Translations under genes and position numbers: made by a program
Assembly (NCBI GenBank): GCA_964528605.1
Contig: CAZGSV010000007.1
Location: 62-64,061 of the forward strand
DNA: 64,000 nucleotides
Reading direction: 5' to 3'
DNA from: an uncultured Armatimonadia bacterium
GTDB taxonomy: Bacteria; Armatimonadota; Zipacnadia; CAZGSV01
Part shown: positions 6,987 through 50,700 of the stretch, one piece after another
Layout: each line of letters opens with the position of its first letter
How positions within the stretch are numbered: position 1 is the first letter of the stretch
Notes under the pieces: model-generated
The model's input: the letters and a program-made list of their open reading frames with translations, nothing else
What the model was told of the DNA's origin: nothing
Databases searched by the model: none

Positions 6987-8255
6987 CTAGAGCATCTCCA
7001 AGAACGCCTCGATCCGCGTTCTCAGTTGCCCGGTATCCTCCTGGGAATAGTCCGTCTCAATCTTCAGACTCGGAATGCCCTTTTGTTTCAGGGCTGATGC
7101 CACGCGAATGGCCTCCAGATTGTAGCCGTGGCAATACTGCAGCACGTATTGCACCGCACCGGCCACACGGTACTCCTCAGCCAGCCTGAGCACGCTCTCG
7201 ATGCGCTCGTCGTTCGGCGAGAAGCAGGCGCACTCGGTCTTGAGATACCGATCGGCGATGGCCCTGAGTTGCGCCTCCAGGTCTCCATCCGCCTCAGGCA
7301 CCAGGTTCTCAAAGTACCGCGTCCCGGTGCACGTCTCATCGCACACCACGAGCGCGCCGCTCGACTCAAGAAGGTGGTGCAGTTTCCAGTTCCCCGCCAC
7401 CGAAGGACAGCCGGTGATCATGATCCGCTTCGCGCCCTCGCGGCCCACGCTCAGGCCGCGCGCCACCCGCTCCTCCAGGTCCTGGTTCAGCCGCTCCAGG
7501 CTCACAGCGAAGCGCTCGGCATCGTCGGTGAAGGCCGCCTGCGTGACCACCAAAGTGTCCAGGCCGCTTAGTGGCGGCGCCGCCAGGTTGCGGAACGAGT
7601 GCAACCGCGCAAGCCCCCGTCGCCTGCGATTCAATAGCCTCACGGCCTCCGACAGGCTGTCGGCCTCCAGCCTCTTCCCGGTCAAGTCCTCGAGCCGCTC
7701 CTTGAAAGCAAGCACCTCCTCATACCAGAGCGCCGCGTCACGCGGCGACTTCTTCTGCGGCACCTCCATCACGTGGAAGTCGGCTCTCTCGGCCAAAACG
7801 TCCCACGTCTTCTTCTTCGCGTCGCACGTCGTCTCGCCTACGGACATGTCCTCGAGCGGCGCGTAAGGGCACGTCTTCGAAAACGCAAGCCCCAGCGTGG
7901 ATTTGACCAGCGGGCACATGTCCCGCGGAAAGACCCTCTCCGCGTAGGGGACGGAGAACGCCGTGCCCCCGCACAAGGCCAGCGGCAGCACCCCAAGCGC
8001 CACGGCTATCTCCTCGGGCACATACACGCAGAAGGTGCCGATGAACTTGCCCCCCGCCTCCTTGTGGGCGATTATCTCGCGCACCCGCCCGCTGTGCGCC
8101 CGATGGATGACCTCGTCAAAGTACCCCATCGCTCGCGGCCGGTTCTCCTGCCACAGGACCTGCTCGCGGAACTGGGCAGCCGTGTGTTCCGCCAGAGCCC
8201 TGTGACGCTCGACGTCCAGCCCCAGCCCCCGCCACATCTCCTCGTATTCGGTCAC
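6987..8255 (-). CDS. Double-cubane-cluster-containing anaerobic reductase (DCCP; 2-hydroxyacyl-CoA dehydratase HgdB/FldC superfamily)
   Basis: True start is GTG 8255 (RBS AAGGAGG, GTGA overlap with the activator gene), 422 aa. Six cluster-Cys contexts 'TFCVYVPEE', 'DMCPLVKS', 'GETTCDAKKK', 'DETCTG', 'ECACF', 'QYCHGY'. C-terminus 'QLRTRIEAFLEML'. Confidence 0.88.
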   Translation of the reverse strand: MTEYEEMWRGLGLDVERHRALAEHTAAQFREQVLWQENRPRAMGYFDEVIHRAHSGRVREIIAHKEAGGKFIGTFCVYVPEEIAVALGVLPLALCGGTAFSVPYAERVFPRDMCPLVKSTLGLAFSKTCPYAPLEDMSVGETTCDAKKKTWDVLAERADFHVMEVPQKKSPRDAALWYEEVLAFKERLEDLTGKRLEADSLSEAVRLLNRRRRGLARLHSFRNLAAPPLSGLDTLVVTQAAFTDDAERFAVSLERLNQDLEERVARGLSVGREGAKRIMITGCPSVAGNWKLHHLLESSGALVVCDETCTGTRYFENLVPEADGDLEAQLRAIADRYLKTECACFSPNDERIESVLRLAEEYRVAGAVQYVLQYCHGYNLEAIRVASALKQKGIPSLKIETDYSQEDTGQLRTRIEAFLEML

Positions 8256-9028
8256 GAGTCCCCCTCCTTGCCTCGCGCACTCTCGGCGGCAATCAACGCC
8301 GCCCCAATCGCGGGAACGATCTGCGGGTTCTCGGGCACGAACACAGGGATTCCGAGCCGCTCGCCCAGCAGACCAACGATGCATCCGTTCTTCGCTCCCC
8401 CGCCGACGAGGAGAATCTCGGCCCCAGGTTCGACTCTGGATATCAGGCTTTCCAGTCGCACGACTATCGCGTGATGCAGACCGAGAGCAATCCTTCTCCG
8501 ATCGCCGCCCGAGGTAACCAGGGAGACGACCTCCGACTCGGCGAACACCGTGCACATGCTGCTGATCGGAACCGCCGCGTCGGCAGCCAGCGCCTCGCGC
8601 CAGAACTGCTCAATCTCCCAACCCAGCGCGCGCGCCATCAACTCCATGAACCGCCCGGTGCCGGCCGCGCAGCGATCGTTCATCTCAAAGTCATCGAAGT
8701 CCCCGTCCGGTGCCACGCGAATCGCCTTGCAGTCCTGGCCCCCGATGTCCACCACGGTCGTGCAGCCCGGCCGCACGAATGCCGCGCCCCGCGCGCACGC
8801 CTTGATCTCGCTCACCACGCCGTCGGCGAACTCCACTTTCAGCAGGTGTCGCCCGTAGCCGGTCGCGGTCACGGCCTCGAACTTCAGTCCCTCCATGGCC
8901 TGGCGCACCTTGCGCATCGGATCGTGGTCGGTGTCGAAGATGCGAAAACTCTCAACCCGCTCGCCGTCCAGCGTCACCATCTTGGTGGTGCGGGAGCCTA
9001 GATCAATCCCAAGCACGAGGCCGTTCAT
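8252..9028 (-). CDS. ASKHA-family ATP-dependent [4Fe-4S] activator/reductase (DCCP-R; HgdC/BadG-like)
   Basis: Motifs 'GIDLGSRTTK', 'ATGYGR', 'DIGGQDCK', 'MNDRCAAGTGRF', 'SMCTVFAESEV', 'GGGAKN'. ATG 9028 overlaps the PAP2 stop (TGATG); GTG 9031 is an alternative start. Confidence 0.9.
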   Translation of the reverse strand: MNGLVLGIDLGSRTTKMVTLDGERVESFRIFDTDHDPMRKVRQAMEGLKFEAVTATGYGRHLLKVEFADGVVSEIKACARGAAFVRPGCTTVVDIGGQDCKAIRVAPDGDFDDFEMNDRCAAGTGRFMELMARALGWEIEQFWREALAADAAVPISSMCTVFAESEVVSLVTSGGDRRRIALGLHHAIVVRLESLISRVEPGAEILLVGGGAKNGCIVGLLGERLGIPVFVPENPQIVPAIGAALIAAESARGKEGDS

Positions 9029-9549
9029 CACGGCCGCTTCCAGCGCGCCTCAAGCAGGAGGACCACCGCCCCGGCCAGCATTCCGGTCCCCAGGCCGCCG
9101 AGCACGTCGGTGGGCCAGTGCATGCCCAGGTAAGGGCGAGACACGCACGAGAGCAATCCGTAAAAGCCTGCCGCTATCGCCGCCCTCCGGCTCAGCCGCG
9201 CCAACACGGTCGTGGCCGCCGCCGCCGAACTCGCGTGTCCCGACGGGAAAGACCCGTTCTGCCACACGCGCCCGATGACGTTCAGATGCTCCAAGAGCAT
9301 ATAGGGTCGCGGCCTGAACCAGAGATCTTCGATGGCGCCATCGAACGCTACTGAAACTACTATCGCCGCCACCACCCAGAAGGCGATGCGACGCCCCTCC
9401 CGTCCCCCGACCAACACCAGCCCCACGCAGATCAGCCACCACACCAGGCTCCAATCGCCCGCAGTGCTCGAGGCGACCATCAGTGAGTCAATGCCCCGCC
9501 CCCACGAGCGGCTCAGCCACTGGACAATGTGGGCCTCCGTCCCGTACAC
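9028..9549 (-). CDS. PAP2-family membrane phosphatase
   Basis: Catalytic motifs 'RPRPY', 'SFPSGHA', 'SRPYLGMHWPTDVLGG'. GTG 9549 is preferred over TTG 9600 because of its upstream purine-rich RBS. Confidence 0.85.
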   Translation of the reverse strand: MYGTEAHIVQWLSRSWGRGIDSLMVASSTAGDWSLVWWLICVGLVLVGGREGRRIAFWVVAAIVVSVAFDGAIEDLWFRPRPYMLLEHLNVIGRVWQNGSFPSGHASSAAAATTVLARLSRRAAIAAGFYGLLSCVSRPYLGMHWPTDVLGGLGTGMLAGAVVLLLEARWKRP

Positions 9550-9717: not shown

Positions 9718-9969
9718 ATGACCAGAAAGAACAGGCTACGGCTCCTGCTGCTCATCGCCGCCGTCCTTCTCTCCGGCGCGCTCATAGCGTTCTCCACGCT
9801 CAAGGTCAGATACCCTGTTCAGGACACCGTCAAAACGGAGCCGGACATTACCCGCCTCAGCCTCACCCACAGTGTGGAGCGCGGCCCCGACGGCCGTCTG
9901 ACGATGCCTGCGGGAGCGCCCGCCGCTGGCGCCGGCGGGGCCGCCCAGCCGTGCCCTACCTGACTCTAG
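9718..9969 (+). CDS. Small membrane-anchored candidate selenoprotein ending C-P-T-U-L (CxxU)
   Basis: MTRKNRLRLLLLIAAVLLSGALIAFSTL...AAQPCPT, then TGA(9961-9963) CTC TAG(9967-9969). A 9-bp hairpin has its loop 23 nt after the TGA. If TGA is a stop the protein is 81 aa ending CPT. Confidence 0.55.
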
Positions 9970-9976
9970 GGCGAAC

Positions 9977-10762
9977 ATGATTATGGGTTCCATAATCAAG
10001 GCAAAACGAACGATCAGGGCGCGGGTGGTAACTCAGTGGGCAGCGTTGGGCCTCTTCAACTTGCACTTCCTCTCTCTGCGTTCGGTGTGCGCCCCCGTCC
10101 TCAACTGTCATTCCTGCCCTCTCGCCGTCTTCGCCTGCCCCGTCGGCGTCCTGGTCAACTTCTCCGTGCTGCGCCTGGTCCCGTTCATCACGCTAGGCGT
10201 GCTCGGCTTAGCCGGCGCGCTCGGCGGCCGCTTCGTCTGCGGCTGGCTCTGCCCCTTCGGCCTCCTTCAGGACTGGGCCAAGAAGATCAGAAGCAGGAAC
10301 GCCAGCCTGTCCCGCCGCTTCGTTTATCTGAAGTACGCCCTCCTTGCCGGCCTCGTCTTCGCCGTGCCGTTCTTCCTTCCTAAGTCAACCTACGCCTTCT
10401 GCAATCTGTGCCCGGCCGGAACCCTCGAGTCCGCCATACCCTGGGCCGTCATGGGCCTTTCGTCTCCGTGGCGCTGGAGTTTCGGCCTCAGGGCGGCCCT
10501 CCTCCTCGGCACGGTTGTCCTTGCCATCGCCGTCAGCAGGGGATTCTGTCGGACCCTCTGTCCCCTCGGCGCCATACTGGGCGTCTTCAACAAAGTCTCC
10601 TTGCTCAGGCTCAGGCTGACCAAGGAGGACTGCAACCACTGCGGCGCCTGCGCGCGCCGATGCCCTGTGGGCATTGACCCCGCCCGCCAGATCAACCACC
10701 CCGAGTGCATCCGCTGCCTTGAGTGCACCAGAACCGGCCACTTGCAGTTAGGGCCTAGATAG
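9977..10762 (+). CDS. Membrane 4Fe-4S binding protein (NapH/MauN/RdxA-like polyferredoxin)
   Basis: Motifs 'NCHSCPLAVFACPVG', 'CGWLCPFG', 'CNLCPAG', 'FCRTLCPLG', 'CNHCGACARRCP', 'ECIRCLEC', with TM segments between them. Confidence 0.88.
   Translation: MIMGSIIKAKRTIRARVVTQWAALGLFNLHFLSLRSVCAPVLNCHSCPLAVFACPVGVLVNFSVLRLVPFITLGVLGLAGALGGRFVCGWLCPFGLLQDWAKKIRSRNASLSRRFVYLKYALLAGLVFAVPFFLPKSTYAFCNLCPAGTLESAIPWAVMGLSSPWRWSFGLRAALLLGTVVLAIAVSRGFCRTLCPLGAILGVFNKVSLLRLRLTKEDCNHCGACARRCPVGIDPARQINHPECIRCLECTRTGHLQLGPR
9978..9998 (+). promoter_or_regulatory. SECIS-like hairpin 1
   Basis: TGATTATGG-GTT-CCATAATCA, a perfect 9-bp AU-rich stem with a G-first loop, inside the known 16-37 nt UGA-to-loop window. 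Confidence 0.55.
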
Positions 10763-10800: not shown

Positions 10801-11616
10801 ATGTTGATCGTGACCATACTGGCCGCTATGCTCGCGGGGGTGTTGGGCCTGGGGTGGCTTGTCCCTTTGATCATGGGCATCGTCTACCTCAGGAGGAGGA
10901 CGGGCGGAACGGTCCTCACTGTTCTGGGAGGAGTCTGGCTCCTCGGAGTCGTCGCCATTGTCGCGCTCGGGGCCCTGAGTGCCCGCGAGTGGCACCGTAG
11001 TTACGACTACTCGCCGAAGATCGAGCAATTCGACGCAGCGAAGTACACTGGACCGACAGGGACTATCGCCCTGACCTACAAGGGCCGTTCGAGACTTGAG
11101 GTCTACCAGCACGAGCAGCGCAAGCGGTTGCGCCTCTCAACGGACGACGGCACGATCAAGGCGCCCGTCGGTATCTACTCCGTCCTGAGTTACGAGGCCA
11201 TCGCCAAGGACGCCAAGAGAGCCCAATGGGTCGCCACGTACCGCCCCGATTCTCTCAAAGCCGCCGTCAGCGCCGGCGCCACGACCAAACTCGACCTCGG
11301 CCCGCCACTCACCGCCTCAATCACCGTCAAGAAGGCGCCCAACGACAGCGTAACCATGGACTTCAGCCTTACCGGAGCCACCGCCGGGCAGTACACAATC
11401 ACCAAGGCCCACGGTGTCCAGGTAGCCCCCTCTTTCGTGGCCCTCGACCAGTCGGGCCGCACCGTCTGGCGCGGCCGGTTCGAGTATGGCTGAGGGGGCA
11501 CCTGTGGGTATTCCGGGCGAATACCAAAGGAAGTCAAGGGAAAGGTCACCATCCGTCCGGTCGTCGAGGCGGGGCCCTTTTCCATCAAGGCCAAAGACAC
11601 GATCTGGTCAAGGTGA
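10801..11616 (+). CDS. Membrane-anchored candidate selenoprotein (U231 in F-E-Y-G-U-G-G-T-C)
   Basis: RBS AGGAGG and two N-terminal TM helices. The in-frame TGA 11491-11493 is followed by 40 open codons (GGTCGYSGRIPKEVKGKVTIRPVVEAGPFSIKAKDTIWSR) to TGA-TAG at 11614-11619. A SECIS-like hairpin loop lies 20 nt after the TGA. Confidence 0.8.
11507..11525 (+). promoter_or_regulatory. SECIS-like hairpin 2
   Basis: GGTATTC-CGGGC-GAATACC, 7-bp perfect stem, G in the second loop position. Confidence 0.75.
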
Positions 11617-11677
11617 TAGAATTGGGTGGTGATGGCTGGGTTATGCCTGGCCGATCAAGAGATGGGGGTGCGCCAAC

Positions 11678-12616
11678 ATGACGCGCAGTAGGACACTGAA
11701 GGCTGCCGCTTTGGCGCTTGTCTTCCTAACGGGACTGGCGTGTGTCGCGTTCCTGGGCTCCTGCCGGCAACCACCGACCACCAGCCCTCCTCCGCGTACG
11801 GTCGTTACGCCACCTAGCACGTTTCCCCTCGCTCGGCCGGCCGCGGTCCGCGACGACGGCAAGCCGCGCTACGGCAAGATCGTTCTCAACCAGGACGCCT
11901 CGAAGGTCCTGCTGGTCTCCTTCGAGCGCTCGCCTGAGGCCCGCGCGGGCTACGACCTCATCCGCGCAGACACCAAGTTCACAGGCTCCCTCAAGAACGC
12001 CGAGCAGATACCAGGTACTCTCACCGCATCGGGTACTGTCTTCTCGGCCCGCTTCCCCATTATCAACCTGCAGGTGCCCTTCAACCAGAAGGGCAGCGGC
12101 ATCCCGAACCCTTCGTCCGTTCAGTTCAGGTACTACGGCTCCGGCTCGGACCCGCGGGTCAACGTATCCGTCAGAACTCGCCTCCGCGAGGGCGCTACCT
12201 ACTGGGACTACTCCTTCCGGGGCATGCTCAAACCCTCGGCTAGCCCGCAGACCGCTCCCGTGCTCGACCTGAGCCGTGCGGCCAAACCAAACATCGAGAT
12301 CACGACCCAGCCGGACCCCGCGAAGAAAGGGTACACAGGCATCGGCCTCCAGTTGGGCGTCGCGGACATGGAGGTGGATTTCTGGAAAGGAACGATGCCC
12401 TCCACCGCACCGTCCGCCACCATCGTGTTCACCGCTGAAGGCGGTCGCGTCGCGCACCGCAGTACCGCCTCACTCGACAAGTTTACCTTTGGCTGAAGCG
12501 GCTCATGTGGGTATTCCGTGCGAATACCAAAGGGCAAATACACCCTTACCGCCAGCGTGGACACGGGCCCGCTGGCCGGAGTGGTCAAGGGCACCAAGGC
12601 TGTTGTCCTCAACTAA
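11678..12616 (+). CDS. Lipoprotein candidate selenoprotein (U273 in F-T-F-G-U-S-G-S-C)
   Basis: Signal peptide with lipobox 'LGSC' and a Pro/Thr linker. The in-frame TGA 12494-12496 is followed by 39 open codons (SGSCGYSVRIPKGKYTLTASVDTGPLAGVVKGTKAVVLN) to TAA 12614-12616. A SECIS-like hairpin loop lies 20 nt after the TGA. Confidence 0.8.
12510..12528 (+). promoter_or_regulatory. SECIS-like hairpin 3
   Basis: GGTATTC-CGTGC-GAATACC, the same stem and spacing as hairpin 2 with one loop substitution. Confidence 0.75.
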
Positions 12617-12736
12617 TCCCTAACTTCGCGGTCTCCGCTCGCCGGCCTTGGGCGGCGCCTCGCCACAGCCCAACCTGCTGCGCCCTGACCACCTCCGTTT
12701 GGGCCAGACCTTGGCTTGTCGCGTGGGAGGCAGCGT

Positions 12737-14158
12737 TTGGATAGCGAGATCCTGCGGCAGCTGCCCTCCGTTGACCAACTCCTGAACGCCGCCGAACGCG
12801 CCGGCCTCATCGGCGAGCACGGCCGTGAGATGGTGCTCAATGCGGCGCGCGCCGTGCTCGACCAGGCCCGGGCCCAGATCGCGCACGGCTCAGCCGCGCT
12901 GCCCGATTCCCGGGAGCATGCTACCGACCTTATCGTCGGCCAGATCGCGGGCTATCTGCAAGAAGCGGCCAGTCGCTCCCTCGGTCGTGCCGTGAACGCA
13001 ACCGGCATCATCATCCACACCGGCCTAGGCCGAGCCCTGTTGCCCCGCACCGCCGCCGAGGCCGTAGCCGAGGTCCTGGGTGGCTACTGCAACCTCGCGG
13101 TTGACCCGGACACGGGCCAGCGCGGACACCGAGACTCGCACCTCGTCGGCCTCCTCTGTGAACTCACCGGCGCCGAGGCCGCCACCATGGTCAACAACAA
13201 CGCCGCCGCCACCATGATCATCCTCAACACGCTGGCCAAGGGGAAAGAGGTCATCGTCTCCCGTGGCCAACTGGTCGAGATCGGCGGCTCCTTCCGCATG
13301 CCGGAGGTCATGGAGGCCAGTGGCGCCATCCTCCGGGAAGTGGGCACTACCAACAAGACCTACCTGAGCGACTACCTCAACGCTATCGGCGACAACACCG
13401 GAGCCATCCTGCGCGTCCACCAGAGCAACTACCGCATCATCGGTTTCACCGAACAGCCGGCCCTCGAAGGCCTCGTGCGCGTCGGCCACGAGCACAACCT
13501 GCCCGTCATTGACGACCTCGGCAGCGGCGCGCTCCTCGACATGAAGGACTTCGGCCTGGCGCACGAGCCCATGGTGCAAGAGAGCATTCGCGCGGGCGCG
13601 GACGTCGTCTGCTTCAGCGGCGACAAACTTATCGGCGGCCCACAGGCCGGCGTCATCGTTGGCCAGGCCGCTGTCATCGAGAAGATCAAGAAGAACCCGC
13701 TGGCCCGCGCCCTGCGAGTCGGCAAGATGACCATAAGCGCCCTGGAAGCGACGCTGCGCCTGTTCCTCAGCCGCGACAGACTCCTCAGCGAGAATCCGAC
13801 CTATCGCATGTTGTCCCTCCCCCTCTCCGAACTCGACGAGCGGGCCAAGTCCGTCGCCGAGGCGCTGCGCGAAGTCCTCTCAGGCGTCGCCGAAATCGCC
13901 GTCATTGACGGCGCCTCCGAGGTCGGCAGCGGCTCCGTGCCCGCGGAGGCGATTCCCACGCGCCTCCTGAGCGTCAGGCCCACAGCGGTGTCCACTCAGA
14001 CCCTGGCCCGATCACTCCGCCACTACGCCCCCCCCATTTTCGCCCGCGTCCACAAGGACGCGGTGCTCTTCGACTTCCGCACCCTGCAAGCCGAGGAAGA
14101 TGCGATCGTCTGTGCCGCGCTGCGGGCGCTCCTGGCAAATGAGGCGACGTCCGAATGA
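12737..14158 (+). CDS. selA: L-seryl-tRNA(Sec) selenium transferase
   Basis: Motifs 'VNATGIIIHTGLGRA', 'VNNNAAA', 'SRGQLVEIGGSFRMPEVM', PLP-Lys 'FSGDKLIGGPQAG'. TTG 12737 has RBS GGGAGG; TTG 12716 is an alternative. Confidence 0.97.
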   Translation: MDSEILRQLPSVDQLLNAAERAGLIGEHGREMVLNAARAVLDQARAQIAHGSAALPDSREHATDLIVGQIAGYLQEAASRSLGRAVNATGIIIHTGLGRALLPRTAAEAVAEVLGGYCNLAVDPDTGQRGHRDSHLVGLLCELTGAEAATMVNNNAAATMIILNTLAKGKEVIVSRGQLVEIGGSFRMPEVMEASGAILREVGTTNKTYLSDYLNAIGDNTGAILRVHQSNYRIIGFTEQPALEGLVRVGHEHNLPVIDDLGSGALLDMKDFGLAHEPMVQESIRAGADVVCFSGDKLIGGPQAGVIVGQAAVIEKIKKNPLARALRVGKMTISALEATLRLFLSRDRLLSENPTYRMLSLPLSELDERAKSVAEALREVLSGVAEIAVIDGASEVGSGSVPAEAIPTRLLSVRPTAVSTQTLARSLRHYAPPIFARVHKDAVLFDFRTLQAEEDAIVCAALRALLANEATSE

Positions 14159-15741
14159 TAGACCCGGAGAAGAGACGGCGCGTGATGGAGCGGTCCATGA
14201 AGTTGGGCCACTGCATCTGCAACCCCAAGCAGGCCTGCCCGTGTGACCTTTTCAAGGAGCAAGACGTCTGCACCTGCGCCGGCGAGCGCCCTCACCATCT
14301 CTCCTCCGAGGTCCGACTCACCACCCTGGTCGAGAACCCCGGCTGCGCCTCGAAGATCAGCCAGCAGGACCTGAAGCAGATCCTCGTAGGCCTCCCGCAC
14401 GAGACCGACCCGAACGTCCTCGTGAGCGCAAGCACCTGCGACGACGCCGGCATATACCAACTGGACGAGGACCGTGCGCTCGTCCAATCCGTGGACGTCT
14501 TCGCGCCCAGCGTGGACGACCCCTATACCTTCGGCCAGATAGCCGCCGCCAACTCGCTCAGCGACATCTACGCCATGGGCGGCCGGCCCCAAACGGCCCT
14601 CGCCATCATCGGCTTCCCCACCGACAGTCTGAGCGCCGACATCATGACCGAGATCGTCCGCGGCGGCATTGACAAGATGCGCGAGGCCGGCGTCCCCGTC
14701 ATTGGCGGCCACAGCATCAACGACCGCGAGATCAAGTTTGGCTTCGCCGTCACCGGCGTCATCAACCCCTCCACAATCGTCACCAATGCCAATGCCCAGC
14801 CCGGCGACCTCCTGCTGCTAACCAAGCCCCTGGGTGTCGGCGCCATCGCCTTCGCCGCGCAACTGGGGAAGGCGTCGTCGCTCGCGCTCACGGCTTCGGC
14901 CCGCGCCATGAGCCAACTCAACAATACGGCCGCCGAAGTGATGCTCGAAATCGGTGTCAACTCCGCCACCGACGTCACCGGCTTCGGCCTCCTCGGCCAC
15001 CTCACCGAGATGGCCGTCCAGAGCGGCGTCACAGTCGAGGTCTACCCGGAACAGATCCCGACGTTCCCGGAAGCCCTCGATTACCTCTCCCAGGGCATCA
15101 TCTCTGGGGCGGCCGAGCGCAACAAAGAGTACGTCTCGCGCTACGTCACCTTCGCCCCGGGCGTGAGCGAAGCCATGCAGTATCTGCTCTGCGATCCTCA
15201 AACCTCGGGCGGCCTGCTCATGGCCGTCCCGGCCGAGAAGGCCCAGGCGCTGCTCGCCGCGCTTCGCAATCGCGGCGTGGAGGCTGCCTCGATCATCGGC
15301 GCAGTGAGCGCCAAGTCGGAGGCACATATCGTGATCAAGAACAACCAACCTTGCTGTGCGGAAGAAGCCTCGGCTGAGGAGGCAGCGGCCGCGCCGGAGG
15401 AATCCCCCGCCGCTTGCTGTGCCTCCGTCGCTCACGCGGAGTGCTGCGCCACTCCCGACGAGGCTCCCCCAGAGACCGCCGATACTCCCGCCAAGGAGAG
15501 CTTCATGGCCTTCATGGGTGAGGTCATGCGCGAGGGGGGCATCAGCCTCCACAACAAGGAACTCATGGCCATCGCGCTCTCCCTGCTCGCCAAGTGCGAG
15601 CCCTGCGCCAGAATCCACCTGAGCAAGGCCCGCGCCGCCGGCGCCCGCGAGGACGAGATCACCGAGGCCGTCTGGATGGCCGTCGCCTTCGGCGGCGCGC
15701 CCACGCTGATGTTCTATGAATCGCTCAAGGGAAGCGATTGA
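14155..15741 (+). CDS. selD: Selenide, water dikinase (Cys-type) fused to an N-terminal Cys-rich FTR-like domain and a C-terminal AhpD/CMD domain
   Basis: Core 'GCASKI', 'DDAGIY', 'QSVDVF', 'FGQIAAANSLSDIYAMGG', 'GGHS', 'TDVTGFGLLGHL', 'DPQTSGGLL'. Extra N-terminal CIC/CPC/CTC motifs and C-terminal 'KELMAIALSLLAKCEPCARIH'. Confidence 0.95.
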   Translation: MIDPEKRRRVMERSMKLGHCICNPKQACPCDLFKEQDVCTCAGERPHHLSSEVRLTTLVENPGCASKISQQDLKQILVGLPHETDPNVLVSASTCDDAGIYQLDEDRALVQSVDVFAPSVDDPYTFGQIAAANSLSDIYAMGGRPQTALAIIGFPTDSLSADIMTEIVRGGIDKMREAGVPVIGGHSINDREIKFGFAVTGVINPSTIVTNANAQPGDLLLLTKPLGVGAIAFAAQLGKASSLALTASARAMSQLNNTAAEVMLEIGVNSATDVTGFGLLGHLTEMAVQSGVTVEVYPEQIPTFPEALDYLSQGIISGAAERNKEYVSRYVTFAPGVSEAMQYLLCDPQTSGGLLMAVPAEKAQALLAALRNRGVEAASIIGAVSAKSEAHIVIKNNQPCCAEEASAEEAAAAPEESPAACCASVAHAECCATPDEAPPETADTPAKESFMAFMGEVMREGGISLHNKELMAIALSLLAKCEPCARIHLSKARAAGAREDEITEAVWMAVAFGGAPTLMFYESLKGSD

Positions 15742-17707
15742 GAGCGCCGCCGCGGACGCCGAGCAGATAATCGTCGGCACCGCAGGCCACATTGACCACG
15801 GCAAGACCGCGCTCGTCAAGGCCCTAACCGGCGTAGACGCCGACACCCTAGCCGAGGAAAAGCGCCGCGGCATCACCATCGAACTCGGCTTCGTCTTCAT
15901 GGAGACGCCCGACCCGCGCAAGCACCTGGTCTTCATTGACGTCCCGGGCCACGAGCGCCTTATCAAGACCATGGTGGCCGGCGCCAGCAGCATTGATGCC
16001 GCTCTGCTCGTGGTCGCCGCAGACGAAGGCGTCAGCGCCCAGACCCGAGAGCATCTCGACATCCTGCGTTTGCTCGAAGTGCCGGCAGGCGTCGTGGCGC
16101 TCACCAAGGCGGACCTGGTTGACGACGAGCGTCTCGCCTTCGTCGCGCAAGAGACCCGTGACTCCCTCGCCGACACCTTCCTCAGCGACGCGCCGATCAT
16201 ACCCGTATCCTCGGTCACGGGCTGCGGCGTCGAGGACATCAGGTCTGCCGTGCTGGCGTTGGCAGACCGCGTGCGCCCGCGGCCCGACAGTGGCATCTTC
16301 CGCATGCCCGTTGACCGCGTCTTCACCATGCACGGCTTCGGCACCGTCATCGCCGGCACCATCCTCTCAGGCTCAGTCGCGGTCGCTGACACCATCGAGT
16401 TGTTCCCCGACGGGATGCTCGCCCATGTGCGCGGCATACAGGTCCACCGCCAGAACACGAAGCGCTCCAACATCGGCAAGCGCACCGCAATCAACCTTCA
16501 GGACATTGAGAAGGAGAGACTGCGGCGTGGCCAGTGCGCCGCGGCACCCGGCTCGCTCACGCCGACGAACCGCCTCGACGTCCGGCTTCGGCTGATGGAG
16601 CATTGCCGTCAAAGCCTGAAGAACCGCGCCAGGCTCCGCCTCCACCTGGGCACGGACGAGGTCATCTGCCGTCTGGCGCTTCTCGACCGCGAAGACTTGG
16701 CGCCCGGTGCCGAAGCGCCGGTGCAACTCGTGCTCGAAAGCCCGACCGTGGCCGTCCGCAGCGAGCGTTTCCTCGTCCGCACCTTCTCGCCGCAAGTGAC
16801 TATCGGTGGTGGCGCCGTGCTCGACCCATTGCCCCCGCGACACAAACGCTTCGACCCGGCAACGGTCGAGGACCTCGCCCGCCTCGACCGCGGCCTCGAA
16901 GAGGCAGTTGAGCAGGCCTTCCTCAAGTCGGGCTTCATCCCTCGGACGCCGCAGCAGGTCGCCCTCGCCCTTGCGGAGCGAGAGGAAGAGGTCACGCCAG
17001 CCGTGGAGGGCCTCTGCCAGGCGCGACGGCTCGTCAAGATCGCCGCAAGTGGCGAGCCAAGTCCGCCCTCGGCCTCACCGCAACAAACGTACCTGCACGC
17101 CGACGCCTTCGCGTCGCTCGGTCAGCGCCTGCTCACCCTCATCGAAGAGTACTACGCGCGGCACCCGTATCGGCTCTTGATGCCGCTCGCGGACCTCCAG
17201 TCGCGCTTCCTCAGATGGGCCGAGCGGCCCCTGTTGGACGCGGCGCTCGCCGACCTGCGCAAAGCCGGGCGCATCTACTCCCAGGAAGGCGCCGTCGGCC
17301 TGAGCGGCTACGAGATACCGCTCAAGCCCTCCGAACGCCAGTTGGCCGAACGCATCGAGGCGGCCTTCAGCGGGGCCGGCCTTGCCGCGCCCCTGGAGGA
17401 GGAAGTGCGCCAGCACCTGGGCGCGCGCCCCGAGACCTTCCAGAGCATCCTCACAGGTTTGATTGACCAAGGGCGCTTGGTTAGACTCAGCGACAAGGTG
17501 ACCTATCACCGAGAGCATCTGGACGCGGCGCGCGCCATGGTGACCGACCACCTCAAGACCCATCAGCGCCTCTCCGTCGCCGAACTACGCGACCAACTCG
17601 GCGTCTCGCGCAAGTACGCCCTCGCGCTCATGGAGTACTTCGACAAGGTCGGCCTCACCCGGCGCGAAGGCGACGCCCACGTCCTCAAGCAGCCAGCGGG
17701 AAGGTGA
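15716..17707 (+). CDS. selB: Selenocysteine-specific translation elongation factor
   Basis: 'GTAGHIDHGKT', 'EEKRRGITIELGF', 'DVPGHE', 'TKAD', C-terminal winged helix 'RDQLGVSRKYALALMEYFD...TRREGD'. Confidence 0.97.
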   Translation: MNRSREAIESAAADAEQIIVGTAGHIDHGKTALVKALTGVDADTLAEEKRRGITIELGFVFMETPDPRKHLVFIDVPGHERLIKTMVAGASSIDAALLVVAADEGVSAQTREHLDILRLLEVPAGVVALTKADLVDDERLAFVAQETRDSLADTFLSDAPIIPVSSVTGCGVEDIRSAVLALADRVRPRPDSGIFRMPVDRVFTMHGFGTVIAGTILSGSVAVADTIELFPDGMLAHVRGIQVHRQNTKRSNIGKRTAINLQDIEKERLRRGQCAAAPGSLTPTNRLDVRLRLMEHCRQSLKNRARLRLHLGTDEVICRLALLDREDLAPGAEAPVQLVLESPTVAVRSERFLVRTFSPQVTIGGGAVLDPLPPRHKRFDPATVEDLARLDRGLEEAVEQAFLKSGFIPRTPQQVALALAEREEEVTPAVEGLCQARRLVKIAASGEPSPPSASPQQTYLHADAFASLGQRLLTLIEEYYARHPYRLLMPLADLQSRFLRWAERPLLDAALADLRKAGRIYSQEGAVGLSGYEIPLKPSERQLAERIEAAFSGAGLAAPLEEEVRQHLGARPETFQSILTGLIDQGRLVRLSDKVTYHREHLDAARAMVTDHLKTHQRLSVAELRDQLGVSRKYALALMEYFDKVGLTRREGDAHVLKQPAGR

Positions 17708-17794
17708 AGGTTCCGGTGAACCTTCTGGACTTCAAACCCAGTATGGGGCTTGGATAAAGTCCCGGGTGGGTTCGACTCCCACACCTTCCCGCCA
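17698..17794 (+). tRNA. selC: tRNA-Sec (anticodon TCA)
   Basis: 8-bp acceptor GGGAAGGT/ACCTTCCC, 6-bp D stem AGGTTC-CGGT-GAACCT, loop CTTCAAA with TCA at 17732-17734, long variable arm GGGGCTT/AAGTCCC, T arm GTGGG-TTCGACT-CCCAC, encoded GCCA end. Confidence 0.97.
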
Positions 17795-45574: not shown

Positions 45575-46906
45575 ATGAAAGCAGGCTGGAGCGAGATTGA
45601 CATCACGCCCCCCCTGGGCACGGCGCTAGGCGGAGACCCCGGGCGCGACCATGGCTACCAAGTCGTGTACGACCCGGCGATGGCGCAGGTGCTCGCGCTC
45701 GAGGACCAGGCCGGCGCGCGGCTTGAGGTCGTCACCCTCGACGTGACCGGCATAGTGTGGCGCGATCGAGAGAGGATCGCGGCGGCGGTCGAGGAGAGGT
45801 GCGGACTGCCTCCTCATCACCTGCTGCTCAACTGCTCCCACTCGCACAGCGCGCCCGCGCTCGAAGTGGACACCCACAACCATCCCCCCCGCGATCTCTA
45901 CGCGTGCCGCGGCCGCCTCGCGGAGTATCGAACCTGGTTCCTCGAAGCGGTGGCGGGCGCGGTGGGGCAGGCGCTCCGGAGCCTCCGGCCCGCGAAACTG
46001 TTCTTCGGCAAGGGCCAATCCGGCGTGGGCATCAGTCGGCGCTTGGTCGTGGACGGCAAGGCGCAGTTCATGCCCAGCCCTGAAGGCTTCTACGACCGCG
46101 ACCTAGCGGTGGTCGCGGTCGGGCCGTCCGCGGATGACCTGCGCGCGCTCTTGTTCGTCCACGGCTGCCATGCGACCACGCGCTACGGCGGCGAGCACCG
46201 CTATGCTCTATCAGCGGACTACCCGGGCGCGGCCAGGCGTCACCTCAACCAGGCGCTGGGGCAGCGCGTGCTGACAATGTTTGGGCAAGGCGCAGGAGCG
46301 GACATCCGGCCGCCGGCCATTGACGAGAACGGCCGCTTCCGCGCGGGTACCCACGAGGACGTGGAGAAGATGGGCGCGCAGCTGGCGCAGGACGTCGTCT
46401 CGGTGCTCAGAGGGCACCTGCGCGAGATCGAGAACCCTCGTTTCGCCGCCACCCTCTCCTTCGCCGGCATTCCGTTGCAGCCTCCCCCCGCGCCCCAAGA
46501 ACTCGAGCGGCTGAGTCAGGACCCCGAGGCGTATTCCTACCGCCGCCTTTGGGCGGACCGCCTACTGGCGTTTCTCGGACGCGGGGAGTGCGTGCCGGCT
46601 TACCTTCCGCTGCCCATTCAGGTGCTGCGGCTGGACTCGGAGCATCTGGTGGTTGGGCTGGGGCACGAGGTGGTCAGTAAGTTGGGCGCGATGGTCAAGG
46701 AGGCCCTCGCGCCCGCGGAGACGGCTCTGATGGCCTACTGCAACGCCGCGGAGGTTTACATCCCGACGGCTCAGATGCTGAGCGAGGGCGGCTACGAGCC
46801 CGAGGGCTACATGTGGGGCGTCTATCCCGCGCCCGTCGCCGAGTGCGTGGACGAGGTCATACTAGCCAAGGTGCGCGAGATAGTGCGCAAGACCGAGGCA
46901 ACCTGA
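45575..46906 (+). CDS. Neutral/alkaline ceramidase-like metallo-amidohydrolase
   Basis: 'AGWSEIDITP', 'CSHSHSAP', 'GCHATT', 'LSADYPG', 'QGAGADI', 'EGGYEP'. Confidence 0.75.
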   Translation: MKAGWSEIDITPPLGTALGGDPGRDHGYQVVYDPAMAQVLALEDQAGARLEVVTLDVTGIVWRDRERIAAAVEERCGLPPHHLLLNCSHSHSAPALEVDTHNHPPRDLYACRGRLAEYRTWFLEAVAGAVGQALRSLRPAKLFFGKGQSGVGISRRLVVDGKAQFMPSPEGFYDRDLAVVAVGPSADDLRALLFVHGCHATTRYGGEHRYALSADYPGAARRHLNQALGQRVLTMFGQGAGADIRPPAIDENGRFRAGTHEDVEKMGAQLAQDVVSVLRGHLREIENPRFAATLSFAGIPLQPPPAPQELERLSQDPEAYSYRRLWADRLLAFLGRGECVPAYLPLPIQVLRLDSEHLVVGLGHEVVSKLGAMVKEALAPAETALMAYCNAAEVYIPTAQMLSEGGYEPEGYMWGVYPAPVAECVDEVILAKVREIVRKTEAT

Positions 46907-47753: not shown

Positions 47754-50700
47754 CTACTCCGGGAAGTACGGCTGCACCTCCACGAAGTTGAACATCAGTT
47801 CCTGTCCGATGGGCCCGCCGGGGTCAGTGTCGCTGACCCAGTCGGAGATGCGCAGCGTGGCTTCCGCGCCGGTCGCGCGCAAGACGCGCCAGTGGAAGTT
47901 CATCCAGGCGGGGCGCTGGGAACTGTAGCCTCCCCACGGCGGTGAGACGCCGTTGGCGAACGGCTCTTGGAAGGACCTGTCCGGCAGGGTCTCCGCGCCC
48001 TCCACCTCAACTGACACCGCATGCTTCACCTTCTCCGACATATCGCGGTGGTCACCGGTGATCATCCTCAGGGAGTAGAGACGCCCGGGCTCCAGATTCC
48101 TGATGGTCTGCCGGACCACATTCGGCTTGCGCGCGCTGCGGCGCATGAGCAGGAAGGTATCGCCCTCTTGGTGGCTCGAGAAGCGGCCCTCCAGCCAGGA
48201 GTAGCCGGTCATCGGCGCGGAACCAGGCCAACTGTCCGCGGTCACGGAGTCCGGTTCCGCCGCCTCGACGTTCCAGCCCTTCAGGCCGTCCGCGAAGTCA
48301 GGGTTCTCCAGATGAGTAAGGAGGTACGGGTCCTTGGTCAAGGGTTCCGTGTTGCCCTCGATGCAGTAGTGCCGGTAGAGGCGGGCCCCCCAGCGCACGG
48401 TCTCTTCGTCCGCCCAGCCGGCGCTCCATTCCTGCACGCCATAGAGGCCCCAGAACTGGGGCGAGTTGGCCACCAAGCGGAACTGCATGTCCATCGCGGT
48501 CTTGTAGTCCACCCCCGGGTTCACGTCCATCATCCCCGGCGGCACGTCGAAGTATCCCAAGACCACGACCGTCCGCTGCGTAACGCCCGGCTGCACCTTC
48601 TCCCAGCCGGTGTTCTCGTCGTAGAGCCAGTGCCGGAACTCGCGCCGCGCTTGGGCCTCCGTCGGCTGCTCCGCGAGGTAGCGTATCCACGCGGCGTAGC
48701 CGTCCCCCTCGAAGACAGCGCGCATGAACTCGGTGCTCTGTTCGCCGAAGTACATCGAGTTGCAGTAGGGATAGAAGGTGACTCCCCGGAAGGCGGGGTT
48801 ATCCTTCAGCCGGCGCACGGCGCCCGTCCACCCGGGGTAGTTGCGATTGTAGTCGGAGAAGAACTCGTCAATGATAATGCCGTCCGCCAGGTAGCCGCCC
48901 AGGCGCGCGGTCTGCAGCCAGTGCTCCTCGGCGTCCTCGGCCGCGATGTCGGGGCCGTGCATGCCCGGGACGCCGCCGTGGATGATCCAGCGGCCGCCGT
49001 TCTTCCGCCAGGCCTGCAAGCGATCCATGTCCTCTCCAGCAGGCTCGCCGATGATGGTGCTGATCTGCGGGAGCACGTGCCGACTGAGGAACTGCCAATC
49101 ATAAGGCCCGAACTCGGGATACGGCGTGTTGATGGGGAAGGCGAAGTACTGCAGTTCCGGCACCGCGCGCACGACGATGCGGTCCAGCCGGCACGGCCCG
49201 GCGCGCCTCAGGCGCAGCGTATGCGGCCCTTCCGGTAGGCGGCGCATGGCCTCAGCGACCGGTGGACCGTCGCTGCGGCTGACGATCACCGGCTCCCCGC
49301 CGTCGTCGAGCGTTACCCGGACCTCAGCCCCGCGCTCAGCCTGGGAAGTCAGGGCCAGGAAAACCCAGCCCTCCCGGGGGTTGAAGAACCGGTACTCCTG
49401 TTCGGCAGCCGCGGACGGCTCCACGTTGAGCAGTTCGCTGACGAAGTTGTTGAGCACCTTGATGCCCTGAGGGGCGCTGGGCCACGAGGGCGATTGCGGC
49501 CAGTTGATCGCCTGCCGCAGCGGGGCGCCAATGGATGCGCCGCCGCGCCCCTTGGCAACGGCGCGCACCTCGTAATCCCCGGCGGGCAGATCGCCGACCT
49601 TGAGCACCGCGCTGGCGAGGCTCTCCTTGGGCATTACCGTGGCCGTAGCCCGCGCAAGGGCTTTGCGCCCCTGACTTGCCACGAGTTCGACTTCAACCCT
49701 CGTCCCGCTGGGCAACTCGCCCCAGGGGGTCGTGTCAACGTCCGCGACAATCTCCCTGCTGTGGTAGAAGAGGTCGGCCTCGATGGCCTTCTTGGTCTTG
49801 AACAGGCGCTGGAGCGAATAGAGCGTGGCGCCCGTTGCCTGGTCGCGTATCACCCAGCGGTGCAGGCGCTCGCCGCCCATCTCCACCGGGAAGTCCAAGT
49901 CCAGGCGAGCGCCTTGCCGCGCGCGGAGAGTAACCTCGGCGCTCGCGAGCTCTCTCCCCCCGGTCATGTCGGTCACCTCGATCTTGAGGTCCCGCGGAGT
50001 GGCAGACCGGTTGGAGAGCCGGGCAAAGGCGCCACTCCTGAACCCCGCCTTCAGCAGTGCATGGCCCACCCCTTCGACCACTAGCGGCCGGCCGGGGATG
50101 ATGAGCGTTCCGTAGTTGTCAGGATTCGCCCACTCTCCCGTGGTGTCCTGCCAGTAGTCGTCCTCCTCGCCGCCGGCGGTGCGCAGCCGTTCGAAGTTCA
50201 CCCGCCAGTGCATCTCCACTCCGGGCGAGCGGTCAATCCCCACCGCCGCGAACGGCAGCACCAACTCCGCGGTCCACTCGCGCTCGCCCACTCGGGCGGC
50301 CGCCCGCACTCCCTGCAGGCTCTGATGCCCATACTCCCGCGTGTCCAGTTCCACAGTGCCGATGGAGTTCACCGTAAACTGGTAGATGTCGCCCATTCCG
50401 CCGGCAGGGTCGAAGTTCATCTCGATGCAGTCGTCGCCCCAGATGCTGGCGTTACTGAGGCCGATGTTGGCCTTGAGTTGTCCGGGCTCGGGCTCGGCGC
50501 AGCGAAAGGCGAGGTAGAGATGGTCCGCGTCACTCAGCGCATAGACCAGGCTCGGCTGCGTCGCCGGCGCGCCGTTGGCGTCGTTGCGGAAGCCGCCGCT
50601 GACGCCGGCTTGCCGCCAGACGGGGTCGGAAAGATCGCCGTCCACGACCGGCGGGCTGGCAACGGCAGTGGCCCGGATCACTCTCCGCTCTGTCGAACAC

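What the first reader, a model, noticed from the sequence alone, without database searches (positions are those of the whole stretch)
11503..12533. 27/28-nt identical element at the same offset after two UGAs: a conserved in-CDS SECIS
TGTGGGTATTCCG[G/T]GCGAATACCAAAGG occurs at 11503-11530 and 12506-12533, each starting 9 nt after a TGA. The single difference is in the loop and changes the codon (Gly vs Val), while the 7-bp stem GGTATTC/GAATACC is untouched. It uses AT-rich codons (TAT, CGA, ATA, CCA) that are rare in this GC-rich DNA, which suggests selection on RNA structure and not only on protein.
Basis: seen in the sequence. Interest (0 to 1): 0.8.

Follow-up and report, generated by a model that had tools for sequence, protein, structure and literature searches.

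The report
Selenocysteine insertion hairpins in two genes
Two neighbouring genes each have an internal UGA followed 13 bases later by the same small RNA hairpin, which comparison with about 340 relatives shows is a conserved selenocysteine-insertion signal (SECIS) of a widespread, apparently uncatalogued family of mostly exported proteins in Planctomycetota and their relatives.

Summary
The 28-mer occurs only at 11503-11530 and 12506-12533 (27/28 identical), 9 nt after in-frame TGAs at 11491 and 12494. Each contains a 7-bp stem (GGUAUUC/GAAUACC) with a 5-nt loop (CGGGC or CGUGC), built from codons rare in this 66% GC genome.

Reading through the UGAs gives proteins of 271 and 312 aa that share only a C-terminal motif, [FY]-G-U-x-G-x-C-[GR]-Y-S-x-R-I-P. 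selA, a selD fusion, selB and tRNA-Sec lie directly downstream, and TGA is otherwise an ordinary stop here.

An HMM census of fetched loci found 349 distinct module copies, mostly in PVC-group bacteria. Of these, 344 carry TGA. In 330 analysable copies, 87% have all 7 pairs intact. Five of 7 pairs covary, including paired amino-acid replacements (YSWRVP to YLWQVP, CSWRAP, LSWREP). The loop codon is G/U-only in 329/330.

Of 11 non-UGA relatives with DNA, 8 have at least 2 broken pairs, against 4/330 UGA copies. All four published bSECIS criteria are met.

The hairpin is an ordinary kind of SECIS. What looks new is the selenoprotein family: it has no Pfam or NCBIfam model, almost never uses Cys, and is strongly linked to the sel operon. 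SelB binding and Sec insertion remain untested.

The parts
10801..11616 (+). Gene 1: selenoprotein of 271 aa (U at residue 231) with two N-terminal transmembrane helices and a C-terminal U-x3-C module. The true stop is TGA at 11614-11616, followed by TAG.
   Evidence: ORF and read-through translation. Relatives at 55-94% identity keep the UGA and the downstream frame. No Pfam or NCBIfam family.
11491..11493 (+). In-frame UGA of gene 1, read as selenocysteine.
   Evidence: Conserved as TGA in all gene-1 relatives and in 344 of 349 family modules.
11507..11525 (+). SECIS hairpin 1: 5' arm 11507-11513 (GGUAUUC), loop 11514-11518 (CGGGC), 3' arm 11519-11525 (GAAUACC). There are 13 nt from the UGA to the stem and 20 nt from the UGA to the loop.
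   Evidence: Folds alone at -8.0 kcal/mol. Covariation. RNAalifold recovers the same helix.
11678..12616 (+). Gene 2: selenoprotein of 312 aa (U at residue 273), with a lipoprotein-type signal (…FLGSC) and the same C-terminal U-x3-C module.
   Evidence: Relatives at 95% identity (P0001) and in the more distant L006 group keep the UGA and the frame.
12494..12496 (+). In-frame UGA of gene 2, read as selenocysteine.
12510..12528 (+). SECIS hairpin 2: 5' arm 12510-12516, loop 12517-12521 (CGUGC), 3' arm 12522-12528.
   Evidence: Folds alone at -8.0 kcal/mol. Same covariation evidence as hairpin 1.
9977..10762 (+). Membrane polyferredoxin gene (Pfam Fer4_5; NapH/NosR-like in my reading) immediately upstream. 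It is conserved next to gene 1 and gene 2 in relatives.
   Evidence: Pfam Fer4_5 at 2.4e-16. Synteny. Found in 22 of 256 family loci.
12716..14158 (+). selA (selenocysteine synthase).
   Evidence: Pfam SelA at 4e-146.
14155..15741 (+). selD (Cys type, …PGCASK…) fused to an N-terminal Cys-rich segment and a C-terminal AhpD/CMD-like CxxC domain.
   Evidence: AIRS, AIRS_C and CMD Pfam hits. Translation.
15716..17707 (+). selB, the Sec-specific elongation factor, with C-terminal winged-helix SECIS-binding domains.
   Evidence: GTP_EFTU, SelB-wing_2 and SelB-wing_3 (1.4e-19).
17698..17794 (+). tRNA-Sec (anticodon UCA).
   Evidence: ARAGORN. Rfam RF01852, 75 bits.

Best explanation
Each 28-mer encodes a bacterial SECIS element. 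This is a 6-7-bp hairpin with a 5-nt G/U-rich loop, lying inside the coding sequence 13 nt downstream of an in-frame UGA. Inferred mechanism: when the ribosome reaches the UGA, the hairpin sits at the mRNA entrance and its loop is bound by the C-terminal winged-helix domain of the SelB encoded 3 kb downstream. SelB then delivers Sec-tRNA(Sec) (gene at 17698) so that selenocysteine is inserted instead of termination. Translation continues for about 40 more codons and completes a C-terminal Ig-like domain in which Sec and a Cys four residues later (U-x-x-x-C) sit in a loop. The same nucleotides also encode the conserved peptide C-[GR]-Y-S-x-R-[IV]-P, so the sequence is under double constraint, which explains the near-identity of the two copies. 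Shown here: UGA conservation, an open and conserved downstream frame, hairpin conservation with covariation, fit to the bSECIS criteria, and the presence of the machinery. Inferred: SelB binding and actual Sec insertion.
For: The repeat is unique and built from rare codons. The UGA and the downstream frame are conserved in relatives. tRNA-Sec, selA, selD and selB with SECIS-binding domains are adjacent. TGA is otherwise a stop in this window.

A motif-level DNA scan with synonymous sites left free found 251 TGA and no real Cys copies among 252 distinct matches, and each stem pair was paired in at least 98%. Internal control: Gly codons flanking the stem are 67-75% GGC, whereas the codon inside the stem ends in G in 98%. 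Arg is CGA in 83% and Val is never GTC.

Formal counts: 99.2% of cells paired against 25-58% for slid partners, and no shuffle out of 500 reaches the observed covariation. The set that the DNA pattern did not shape has 5 of 7 pairs with double-sided changes (1 of 500 shuffles) and a covariation score of 0.285 against 0.143. The switches recur in at least 5 subfamilies defined from flanking sequence only. Paired nonsynonymous compensation is seen: YSWRVP to YLWQVP, CSWRAP, LSWREP and YAWRVP.

The loop codon is G/U-only in 329 of 330 copies although it encodes Trp, Val, Gly or Cys. Of 11 non-UGA relatives, 8 have at least 2 broken pairs, against 4 of 330 UGA copies (Fisher 2e-11). All four bSECIS criteria from PMC13188914 are met. 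Sec machinery is found in 34% of genome loci carrying the family.
Against: There is no experimental evidence. The window hairpins are only marginally stable (-8.0 kcal/mol). In their 40-80-nt context they are not more stable than shuffled sequence (z between -1.0 and +1.65).

The stem overlaps a conserved peptide motif, so part of the conservation is protein-level. Three non-UGA copies (TGC, GGA, TCA) keep a perfect hairpin. They are each one nucleotide from TGA and look recent or decaying, but they show that the stem can persist without a UGA.

About 5% of family loops (AUGGC) lack a G in the first two loop positions. No Rfam family matches the hairpin.
Confidence: 0.9

Rival explanations
1. 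The near-identity reflects only protein-level constraint on the C-G-Y-S-x-R-I-P peptide, or recent gene conversion between the two paralogues. On this view the hairpin is incidental.
For: The stem lies entirely within a conserved peptide motif. A related Y-x-W-T-V-P strand motif exists in unrelated Ig/PKD-like repeat proteins that have no UGA. Three non-UGA copies keep the stem.
Against: Synonymous positions are fixed to rare, pairing-competent codons while neighbouring Gly codons follow genome bias. Compensatory double changes occur in 5 of 7 pairs, including changes that replace two amino acids together. Diverged non-UGA relatives that keep the peptide ([YF]-x-W-[RQK]-V-P) use non-pairing codons. 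Gene conversion within one genome cannot explain conservation across phyla.
Confidence: 0.03
2. The hairpin is a real RNA structure but acts independently of SelB. It might stimulate near-cognate read-through of UGA, pause the ribosome for folding or export, or protect the mRNA.
For: Downstream structures can stimulate stop-codon read-through in other systems (general knowledge). The proteins are mostly exported or membrane-anchored, so a translational pause is conceivable. Binding by SelB has not been tested.
Against: The spacing, stem length and G/U loop fit the bSECIS model. The family genes are strongly linked to selA, selB, selD and tRNA-Sec. The recoded residue sits in a U-x3-C pair, and the partner Cys is replaced in five of the six degraded non-UGA copies in which that position can be aligned, which is typical of a functional Sec. 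The loop is restricted to G/U; G and U loop bases are the ones SelB is known to contact (my own recollection of the SelB-SECIS literature, not checked here).
Confidence: 0.05
3. The UGAs are true stops. The genes end at 11493 and 12496, and the downstream conserved frames are not translated or are separate small genes.
For: Public gene callers annotate the genes in exactly this way: 230-aa and 272-aa products, plus many 35-43-aa downstream fragments.
Against: The downstream 40 codons are conserved at the amino-acid level in frame with the upstream part across hundreds of copies. Together the two parts form one domain that exists uninterrupted in non-Sec relatives. The downstream parts have no consistent start codon or ribosome-binding site of their own (inference from the sequences).
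Confidence: 0.02

Closest known systems
Bacterial SECIS (bSECIS) elements: the E. coli fdhF/fdnG type and the consensus model of Zhang and Gladyshev, as summarised in PMC13188914
   Same: It lies inside the coding sequence just downstream of the Sec UGA. It has a simple upper stem of 6-7 bp (allowed range 4-16) and a small apical loop of 5 nt (allowed 3-9), with a G followed by G or U near the start of the loop. There are 20 nt between the UGA and the loop (allowed 16-37), and the MFE is at or below -7.5 kcal/mol. A SelB with C-terminal winged-helix domains is encoded nearby.
   Different: There is no sequence resemblance to characterised SECIS elements and no Rfam match. There is no bulged U and no extended lower stem that includes the UGA, because flanking positions do not pair. 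The three central loop bases are restricted to G/U and the fifth is C in 99% of copies. The spacing is fixed because the element is locked to a peptide motif.
Catalogued prokaryotic selenoprotein families (Table 1 of PMC13188914; NCBIfam selenoprotein models), for example 'Hypothetical protein DG' (GUxG), the UGSC-containing protein and the DUF1573 (UGC) protein
   Same: There is a single Sec in a short Cys-containing motif (here U-x-x-x-C, preceded by Gly). The proteins are mis-annotated as truncated. The genes lie in a sel-gene neighbourhood, as fdhA does in Proteobacteria.
   Different: No NCBIfam or Pfam model hits any tested member. Term searches of the review found no UxxxC motif and no mention of Planctomycetes, PVC or Verrucomicrobia. 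'Hypothetical protein DG' comes from Desulfosediminicola and has many Cys homologues, whereas this family is almost never Cys (2 Cys forms against about 344 Sec). Most family proteins have an N-terminal hydrophobic or signal-like segment, and the module is a C-terminal Ig-like β-sandwich rather than a thioredoxin-like fold.
Macroglobulin (MG2/MG4) and PKD/FN3-type Ig-like β-sandwich domains
   Same: There are sub-threshold Pfam MG2 hits across the Sec region. The moderate-confidence AF2 model is an all-β domain, and its best (non-significant) Foldseek hits are MG4 of complement C5, FN3 and GH2 Ig-like domains. A Y-x-W-x-V-P strand motif is shared with PKD-like repeats.
   Different: None of these matches reaches significance. 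Those domains carry no Sec and no U-x3-C loop. Membership is not established.

Membership tests
Bacterial SECIS (bSECIS consensus model, PMC13188914 Fig. 2A) | [quoted passage not shown] | tested here: met
   The hairpins start 13 nt after the in-frame TGAs at 11491 and 12494. The frame continues for 40 and 39 more codons.
Bacterial SECIS (bSECIS consensus model, PMC13188914 Fig. 2A) | Apical loop of 3-9 nt on an upper stem of 4-16 bp | tested here: met
   7-bp stem (6-bp core across the family) with a 5-nt loop.
Bacterial SECIS (bSECIS consensus model, PMC13188914 Fig. 2A) | At least one G in the first two loop positions, usually followed by G or U | tested here: met
   The window loops are CGGGC and CGUGC, with G at position 2 followed by G or U. 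Across the family 313 of 330 copies meet this; the AUGGC loops do not.
Bacterial SECIS (bSECIS consensus model, PMC13188914 Fig. 2A) | 16-37 nt between the UGA and the apical loop | tested here: met
   20 nt (11494-11513 and 12497-12516). The UGA-to-Cys-codon spacing is 9 nt in all 330 contiguous copies.
Bacterial SECIS (bSECIS consensus model, PMC13188914 Fig. 2A) | Minimum free energy of -7.5 kcal/mol or lower | tested here: met
   -8.0 kcal/mol for each window hairpin, which is marginal. The family median is -11.9 and 97% are at or below -7.5.
Bacterial SECIS (functional definition) | Structure conserved by selection (covariation) in orthologues and paralogues | tested here: met
   Five of 7 pairs show double-sided changes, and the controls are far lower.
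Bacterial SECIS (functional definition) | [quoted passage not shown] | not testable with these tools
   This needs a gel shift or a reporter assay. Only the presence of selB with SelB-wing_2 and SelB-wing_3 domains is shown.
Bacterial SECIS (functional definition) | The host genome carries the Sec-decoding trait (selA, selB, selD, tRNA-Sec) | tested here: met
   All four lie at 12716-17794. They are also found beside family genes in 41 of 119 genome loci.
Rfam-curated RNA families (including any SECIS models in Rfam 15) | Covariance-model match | tested here: not met
   No match over the hairpins even at E up to 10. At gathering thresholds only tRNA-Sec is found in the window.
Selenoprotein (general computational criteria) | Sec/Cys pair: homologues with Cys aligned to the UGA | tested here: met
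   Met, but such homologues are rare: L253 (TGC) and L257/P0136 (TGT), against about 344 TGA copies.
Known selenoprotein families with NCBIfam or Pfam models | Significant HMM match to a curated family | tested here: not met
   No NCBIfam hit for the two window proteins or for six diverse full-length members. Pfam gives only sub-threshold MG2.

The most novel reading that the evidence does not exclude
The U-x3-C Ig-like module defines a previously uncatalogued, essentially Sec-obligate family of exported or membrane-anchored selenoproteins. It would be the main user of selenocysteine in Planctomycetota and other PVC bacteria. Together with the co-located membrane polyferredoxin (Pfam Fer4_5) and the sel operon, it would form an extracytoplasmic redox or chalcogen/metal-handling system, possibly one that captures or reduces selenium to feed SelD. 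The sel-operon linkage would then reflect function and not only co-regulation.
Probability: 0.2. Interest if true: 0.8.

Novelty: new member of a known kind. Interest (0 to 1): 0.62.

Why it matters
The hairpin is a clean, statistically strong example of an RNA signal written on top of a protein motif. Its stem is preserved even by coordinated replacement of two amino acids, and its loop codon is restricted to G/U regardless of the residue encoded. That makes it a useful natural data set on what SelB of PVC bacteria recognises, and a ready descriptor for re-annotation.

In public databases these genes are systematically split into a truncated protein plus a 35-43-aa fragment, or are translated with the wrong genetic code. 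The element therefore points to hundreds of mis-annotated genes.

It also flags a selenoprotein family that appears to be missing from current catalogues. Unusually, the family almost never uses Cys in place of Sec, most members carry an N-terminal export-type signal, and it is tightly linked to the sel operon. That makes the question of why Planctomycetota keep the Sec trait directly testable.

Tried and rejected
1. Thermodynamic significance. In 40-80-nt contexts the fold is not better than shuffles (z between -1.0 and +1.65), so I did not use energy as evidence.
2. Rfam. There is no match to the hairpins at E up to 10.
3. An extended lower stem that would include the UGA. Flanking positions do not pair, and RNAalifold finds only the short helix.
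4. "Stem lost when UGA is lost" as a decisive test. The result is only partly clean, because 3 of 11 non-UGA copies keep a perfect stem. I report it as supporting evidence only.
5. Other hidden selenoprotein genes in the window. The interrupted frame at 46904 is two adjacent genes, since the downstream part is a complete Peptidase_M55 domain. The candidates at 49468 and 56519 have no homology support in the frame tested.
6. Identity with "Hypothetical protein DG" (GUxG motif). Rejected: it comes from a different phylum, has many Cys homologues, and NCBIfam gave no match for our proteins.
7. Structure-based function. The AF2 model reaches only pLDDT 60 with a 5-sequence alignment, and Foldseek finds nothing significant.
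8. Sequence search of the PDB. Nothing was found.
9. Organism identity. This remains unresolved. The closest named genome locus is an uncultured Verrucomicrobiota MAG (L137; SelA 64% identical), while nearly all other hits are Planctomycetota.
Full report
**Observation.** The 28-mer TGTGGGTATTCCG[G/T]GCGAATACCAAAGG occurs exactly twice in the window, at 11503-11530 and 12506-12533. With up to 3 mismatches allowed there is no further match, and shuffled sequence gives none. Each copy begins 9 nt after a TGA (11491-11493 and 12494-12496) that is in frame with a long upstream ORF. The only difference (11516 G, 12519 T) is in the loop. The stem GGTATTC/GAATACC is identical in both copies. The codons in the element are rare in this 66% GC genome: TAT 0.17, CGA 0.07, ATA 0.11 and CCA 0.07 of their synonymous sets. 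The chance that one gene uses exactly these codons is about 6e-7.

**What surrounds it.** Translating through the UGAs gives gene 1 (10801-11616, 271 aa, two N-terminal TM helices) and gene 2 (11678-12616, 312 aa, lipoprotein-type signal). The two proteins are alignable only over about 36 residues around the UGA. They share F-x-[FY]-G-U-x-G-x-C-G-Y-S-x-R-I-P-K plus a short tail, so the DNA identity is not a remnant of a recent duplication.

Directly downstream lie selA (12716-14158), a selD fusion (14155-15741), selB with SelB winged-helix domains (15716-17707) and tRNA-Sec (17698-17794). Upstream is a Fer4_5 membrane polyferredoxin gene (9977-10762). TGA is the normal stop of selA, selD, selB, BcrAD and MatE in this window. 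The two internal UGAs are therefore context-specific events and not a reassigned codon.

**Close relatives.** Protein searches returned only UGA-truncated products (230, 272, 229 and 237 aa). Their contigs (L001-L013) show the same gene order. In both genes at 55-95% identity they show a conserved TGA, an open and conserved downstream frame, and an unchanged hairpin. L012 carries a single A-to-G change that turns a U-A pair into U-G while changing Ile to Val.

**Unbiased wider sampling.** I scanned the metagenome and species-genome collections with a degenerate pattern that fixes only the peptide motif ([FY]-G-[U/C]-x-G-x-C-x-Y-[ST]-x-R-[IV]-P). Synonymous sites were left free and TGC and TGT were allowed at the Sec position.

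- Of 252 distinct matches, 251 have TGA. The single TGC match (L142) is an unrelated chance hit with four broken pairs.
- Organisms are almost all Planctomycetota (Pirellulales, Planctomycetales, Phycisphaerae, Sedimentisphaerales, Thermoguttaceae), with some Verrucomicrobiota and Lentisphaerota.
- Every stem pair is intact in at least 98% of copies.
- The pair formed by Tyr codon position 3 and Ile/Val codon position 1 is C-G in 219 copies, U-A in 27, U-G in 4 and C-A in 2.
- The pair formed by Ser/Thr codon position 1 and Arg codon position 3 is U-A in 211, A-U in 20, U-G in 19 and other in 2.
- Internal control: the two Gly codons outside the stem are GGC in 67-75% of copies, while the codon inside the stem ends in G in 98%. 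Arg is CGA in 83% and CGC only once. Val is GTA or GTG and never GTC.

**Formal tests.** On 150 maximally diverse copies (A2), the named 7-bp helix is paired in 99.2% of cells, against 25-58% when the partner is slid. There are 34 cells with double-sided change against 5.1 in shuffles (0 of 500), and the covariation score is 0.202 against 0.126 (0 of 500). RNAalifold independently predicts this helix and nothing else. The C-G to U-A switch occurs inside at least 5 subfamilies defined from flanking peptide only, so the events are independent.

**Census without the DNA pattern.** I built an HMM of the C-terminal module and ran it on six-frame translations (TGA read through) of all 253 loci held at that point. 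It found 349 distinct modules, of which 344 have TGA. Of 330 copies with a contiguous motif, 288 have no broken pair, 38 have one (mostly the outermost pair, so the core stem is 6 bp) and 4 have two or more.

The copies that failed my DNA pattern preserve the helix through coordinated amino-acid replacement:

- Y-S-W-R-V-P to Y-L-W-Q-V-P (C-G to U-A);
- to C-S-W-R-A-P (A-U to G-C);
- to L-S-W-R-E-P (two pairs switched);
- to Y-A-W-R-V-P with CGC (U-A to G-C);
- to Y-P-W-R-V-P with CGG.

On the 61 pattern-failing copies plus the two window elements (A3), 5 of 7 pairs show double-sided change (1 of 500 shuffles). There are 27 such cells (0 of 500), the covariation score is 0.285 against 0.143 (0 of 500), and the slid controls are far lower.

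**Loop.** The three central loop bases are the codon between Ser and Arg. In 329 of 330 copies this codon is UGG, GUG, GGG, UGU or GGU. It is made only of G and U although it encodes Trp, Val, Gly or Cys, which points to constraint on the nucleotides rather than the residue.

**Non-UGA relatives as controls.** These are rare. The word-indexed search with a module alignment found five proteins. The exhaustive HMMER search found 176, mostly UGA-truncated N-terminal parts ending exactly at the Sec column or 35-43-aa downstream fragments.

I examined DNA for 11 non-UGA copies.

- Eight have 2-5 of 7 pairs broken and no hairpin: L179, L137, L030, L216, L257, L258, L259 and L260. L257 is a real Cys form (TGT).
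- Five of these eight have also replaced the partner Cys (L137, L030, L216, L258, L259). L257 and L260 retain it, and L179 cannot be aligned at that position. Their codons have drifted to GTC, GTT, GGA and AAG.
- Three keep a perfect stem: L253 (TGC), L254 (GGA) and L256 (TCA). Each is one nucleotide from TGA with the consensus peptide. L254 and L256 have shortened ORFs. These look like recent conversions, decaying copies or read errors.

Overall, 8 of 11 non-UGA copies have at least 2 broken pairs, against 4 of 330 UGA copies (Fisher 2e-11). I treat this as supporting rather than decisive evidence. P0007, which shows "Trp" at the site, is simply a TGA translated under another genetic code.

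**Comparison with what is known.** The 2026 review of the prokaryotic selenoproteome gives four bSECIS criteria: a loop of 3-9 nt on a stem of 4-16 bp; a G in the first two loop positions, usually followed by G or U; 16-37 nt from the UGA to the loop; and an MFE of -7.5 kcal/mol or lower (PMC13188914). The window elements meet all four: 7 bp with a 5-nt loop; CGGGC and CGUGC; 20 nt; and -8.0 kcal/mol. Across the family, 95% meet the loop rule and 97% the energy rule. No Rfam model matches.

The element is therefore an ordinary kind of bacterial SECIS. What looks new is the protein family it serves.

- No Pfam or NCBIfam model matches any member.
- Term searches of the review found no UxxxC motif and no mention of Planctomycetes, PVC or Verrucomicrobia. 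I did not read the whole table.
- The superficially similar "Hypothetical protein DG" (GUxG) is a Desulfobacterota protein with many Cys homologues.
- A planctomycete genome paper lists other selenoprotein candidates (PMC4807772).

**Family properties.**
- There is one Sec per protein, always about 42 residues from the C-terminus, in proteins of 62-1259 aa.
- About 85% have an N-terminal hydrophobic segment.
- The module is probably an Ig-like β-sandwich with the U-x3-C motif in a loop. This rests on a sub-threshold MG2 hit, an AF2 model at pLDDT 60 and non-significant Foldseek hits to MG, FN3 and GH2 Ig-like domains, so it is a hint only.
- The Y-x-W-x-V-P stretch resembles a strand motif of unrelated PKD/Ig-like repeats. 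This suggests that the hairpin was overlaid on a pre-existing structural motif.
- The family is strikingly linked to Sec machinery. selA, selB, selD or tRNA-Sec lie within the fetched few kb in 41 of 119 genome loci and 24 of 120 metagenome loci. The same long selD fusion recurs in most of the 29 loci that contain selD.

**Verdict.** The finding is real and the SECIS interpretation is strongly supported by comparative evidence, with confidence about 0.9. Binding by SelB and actual Sec insertion are inferred. The RNA element is a new member of a known kind. The interest lies in the quality of the covariation and in the widespread, nearly Sec-obligate, apparently uncatalogued, sel-operon-linked family of PVC bacteria that it exposes.

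Noticed in passing
window 14155-15741: selD is a three-part fusion. It has an N-terminal Cys-rich segment (HCICNPKQACPC…CTCAGE), a Cys-type SelD core (…PGCASK…) and a C-terminal AhpD/CMD-like domain with CEPC, joined by a CC-rich linker. Alignments of 525-560 aa at 43-62% identity in 17 other family loci indicate that the fusion is conserved across PVC bacteria.
   Followed up: partly
window 9718-10762 and loci L001-L013: A small 81-aa membrane protein gene and a Fer4_5 polyferredoxin gene always precede gene 1 and gene 2. Fer4_5 homologues occur in 22 of 256 family loci. This suggests an electron-transfer partner for the exported selenoproteins.
   Followed up: partly
loci L014-L252: Family genes lie within a few kb of selA, selB, selD or tRNA-Sec in 34% of species-level genome loci. 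Many contigs carry 2-4 tandem paralogues, for example L137 with 4, and L029 and L163 with 3 each.
   Followed up: partly
window 17698-17707: The 3' end of the selB ORF overlaps the first 10 nt of the tRNA-Sec gene.
   Followed up: no
window 11614-11619: Gene 1 ends in tandem stops, TGA then TAG. The real terminator is therefore also a UGA, but without a downstream hairpin.
   Followed up: no
L116, minus strand, motif at about 146: One family copy has the loop GUAGC, which puts an in-frame TAG at the loop codon (R-Y-S-*-R-V-P). It could be a pseudogene, a sequencing error or something else. It is a single case.
   Followed up: no
public protein databases: There is systematic mis-annotation. Family genes appear as products truncated at the UGA plus separate ORFs of 35-43 aa. 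At least one MAG record (L255/P0007) shows Trp at the UGA, implying translation under a code in which UGA is a sense codon.
   Followed up: yes
window 46904 and 49468: Two other frames interrupted by TGA. 46904 is two adjacent same-frame genes, since the downstream part is a complete Peptidase_M55 domain. 49468 has a -10.5 kcal/mol hairpin starting 17 nt after the TGA but no homology support in that frame; from its composition I suspect it is antisense to a minus-strand gene, which I did not check.
   Followed up: partly
window 6987-9031 (minus strand): A pair of genes for the 2-hydroxyacyl-CoA dehydratase D-component (HGD-D) and its BcrAD/BadFG-type activator ATPase lies divergently upstream. 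The pair is syntenic in all close relatives.
   Followed up: no
proteins P0023, P0030, P0034, P0047: Giant multi-repeat proteins (900-5200 aa) match the module profile 5-14 times through an S-Y-x-W-T-V-P-x-G strand motif of PKD/Ig-like repeats. They have no Cys or Sec there. This hints at the structural ancestry of the peptide on which the SECIS stem is encoded.
   Followed up: partly
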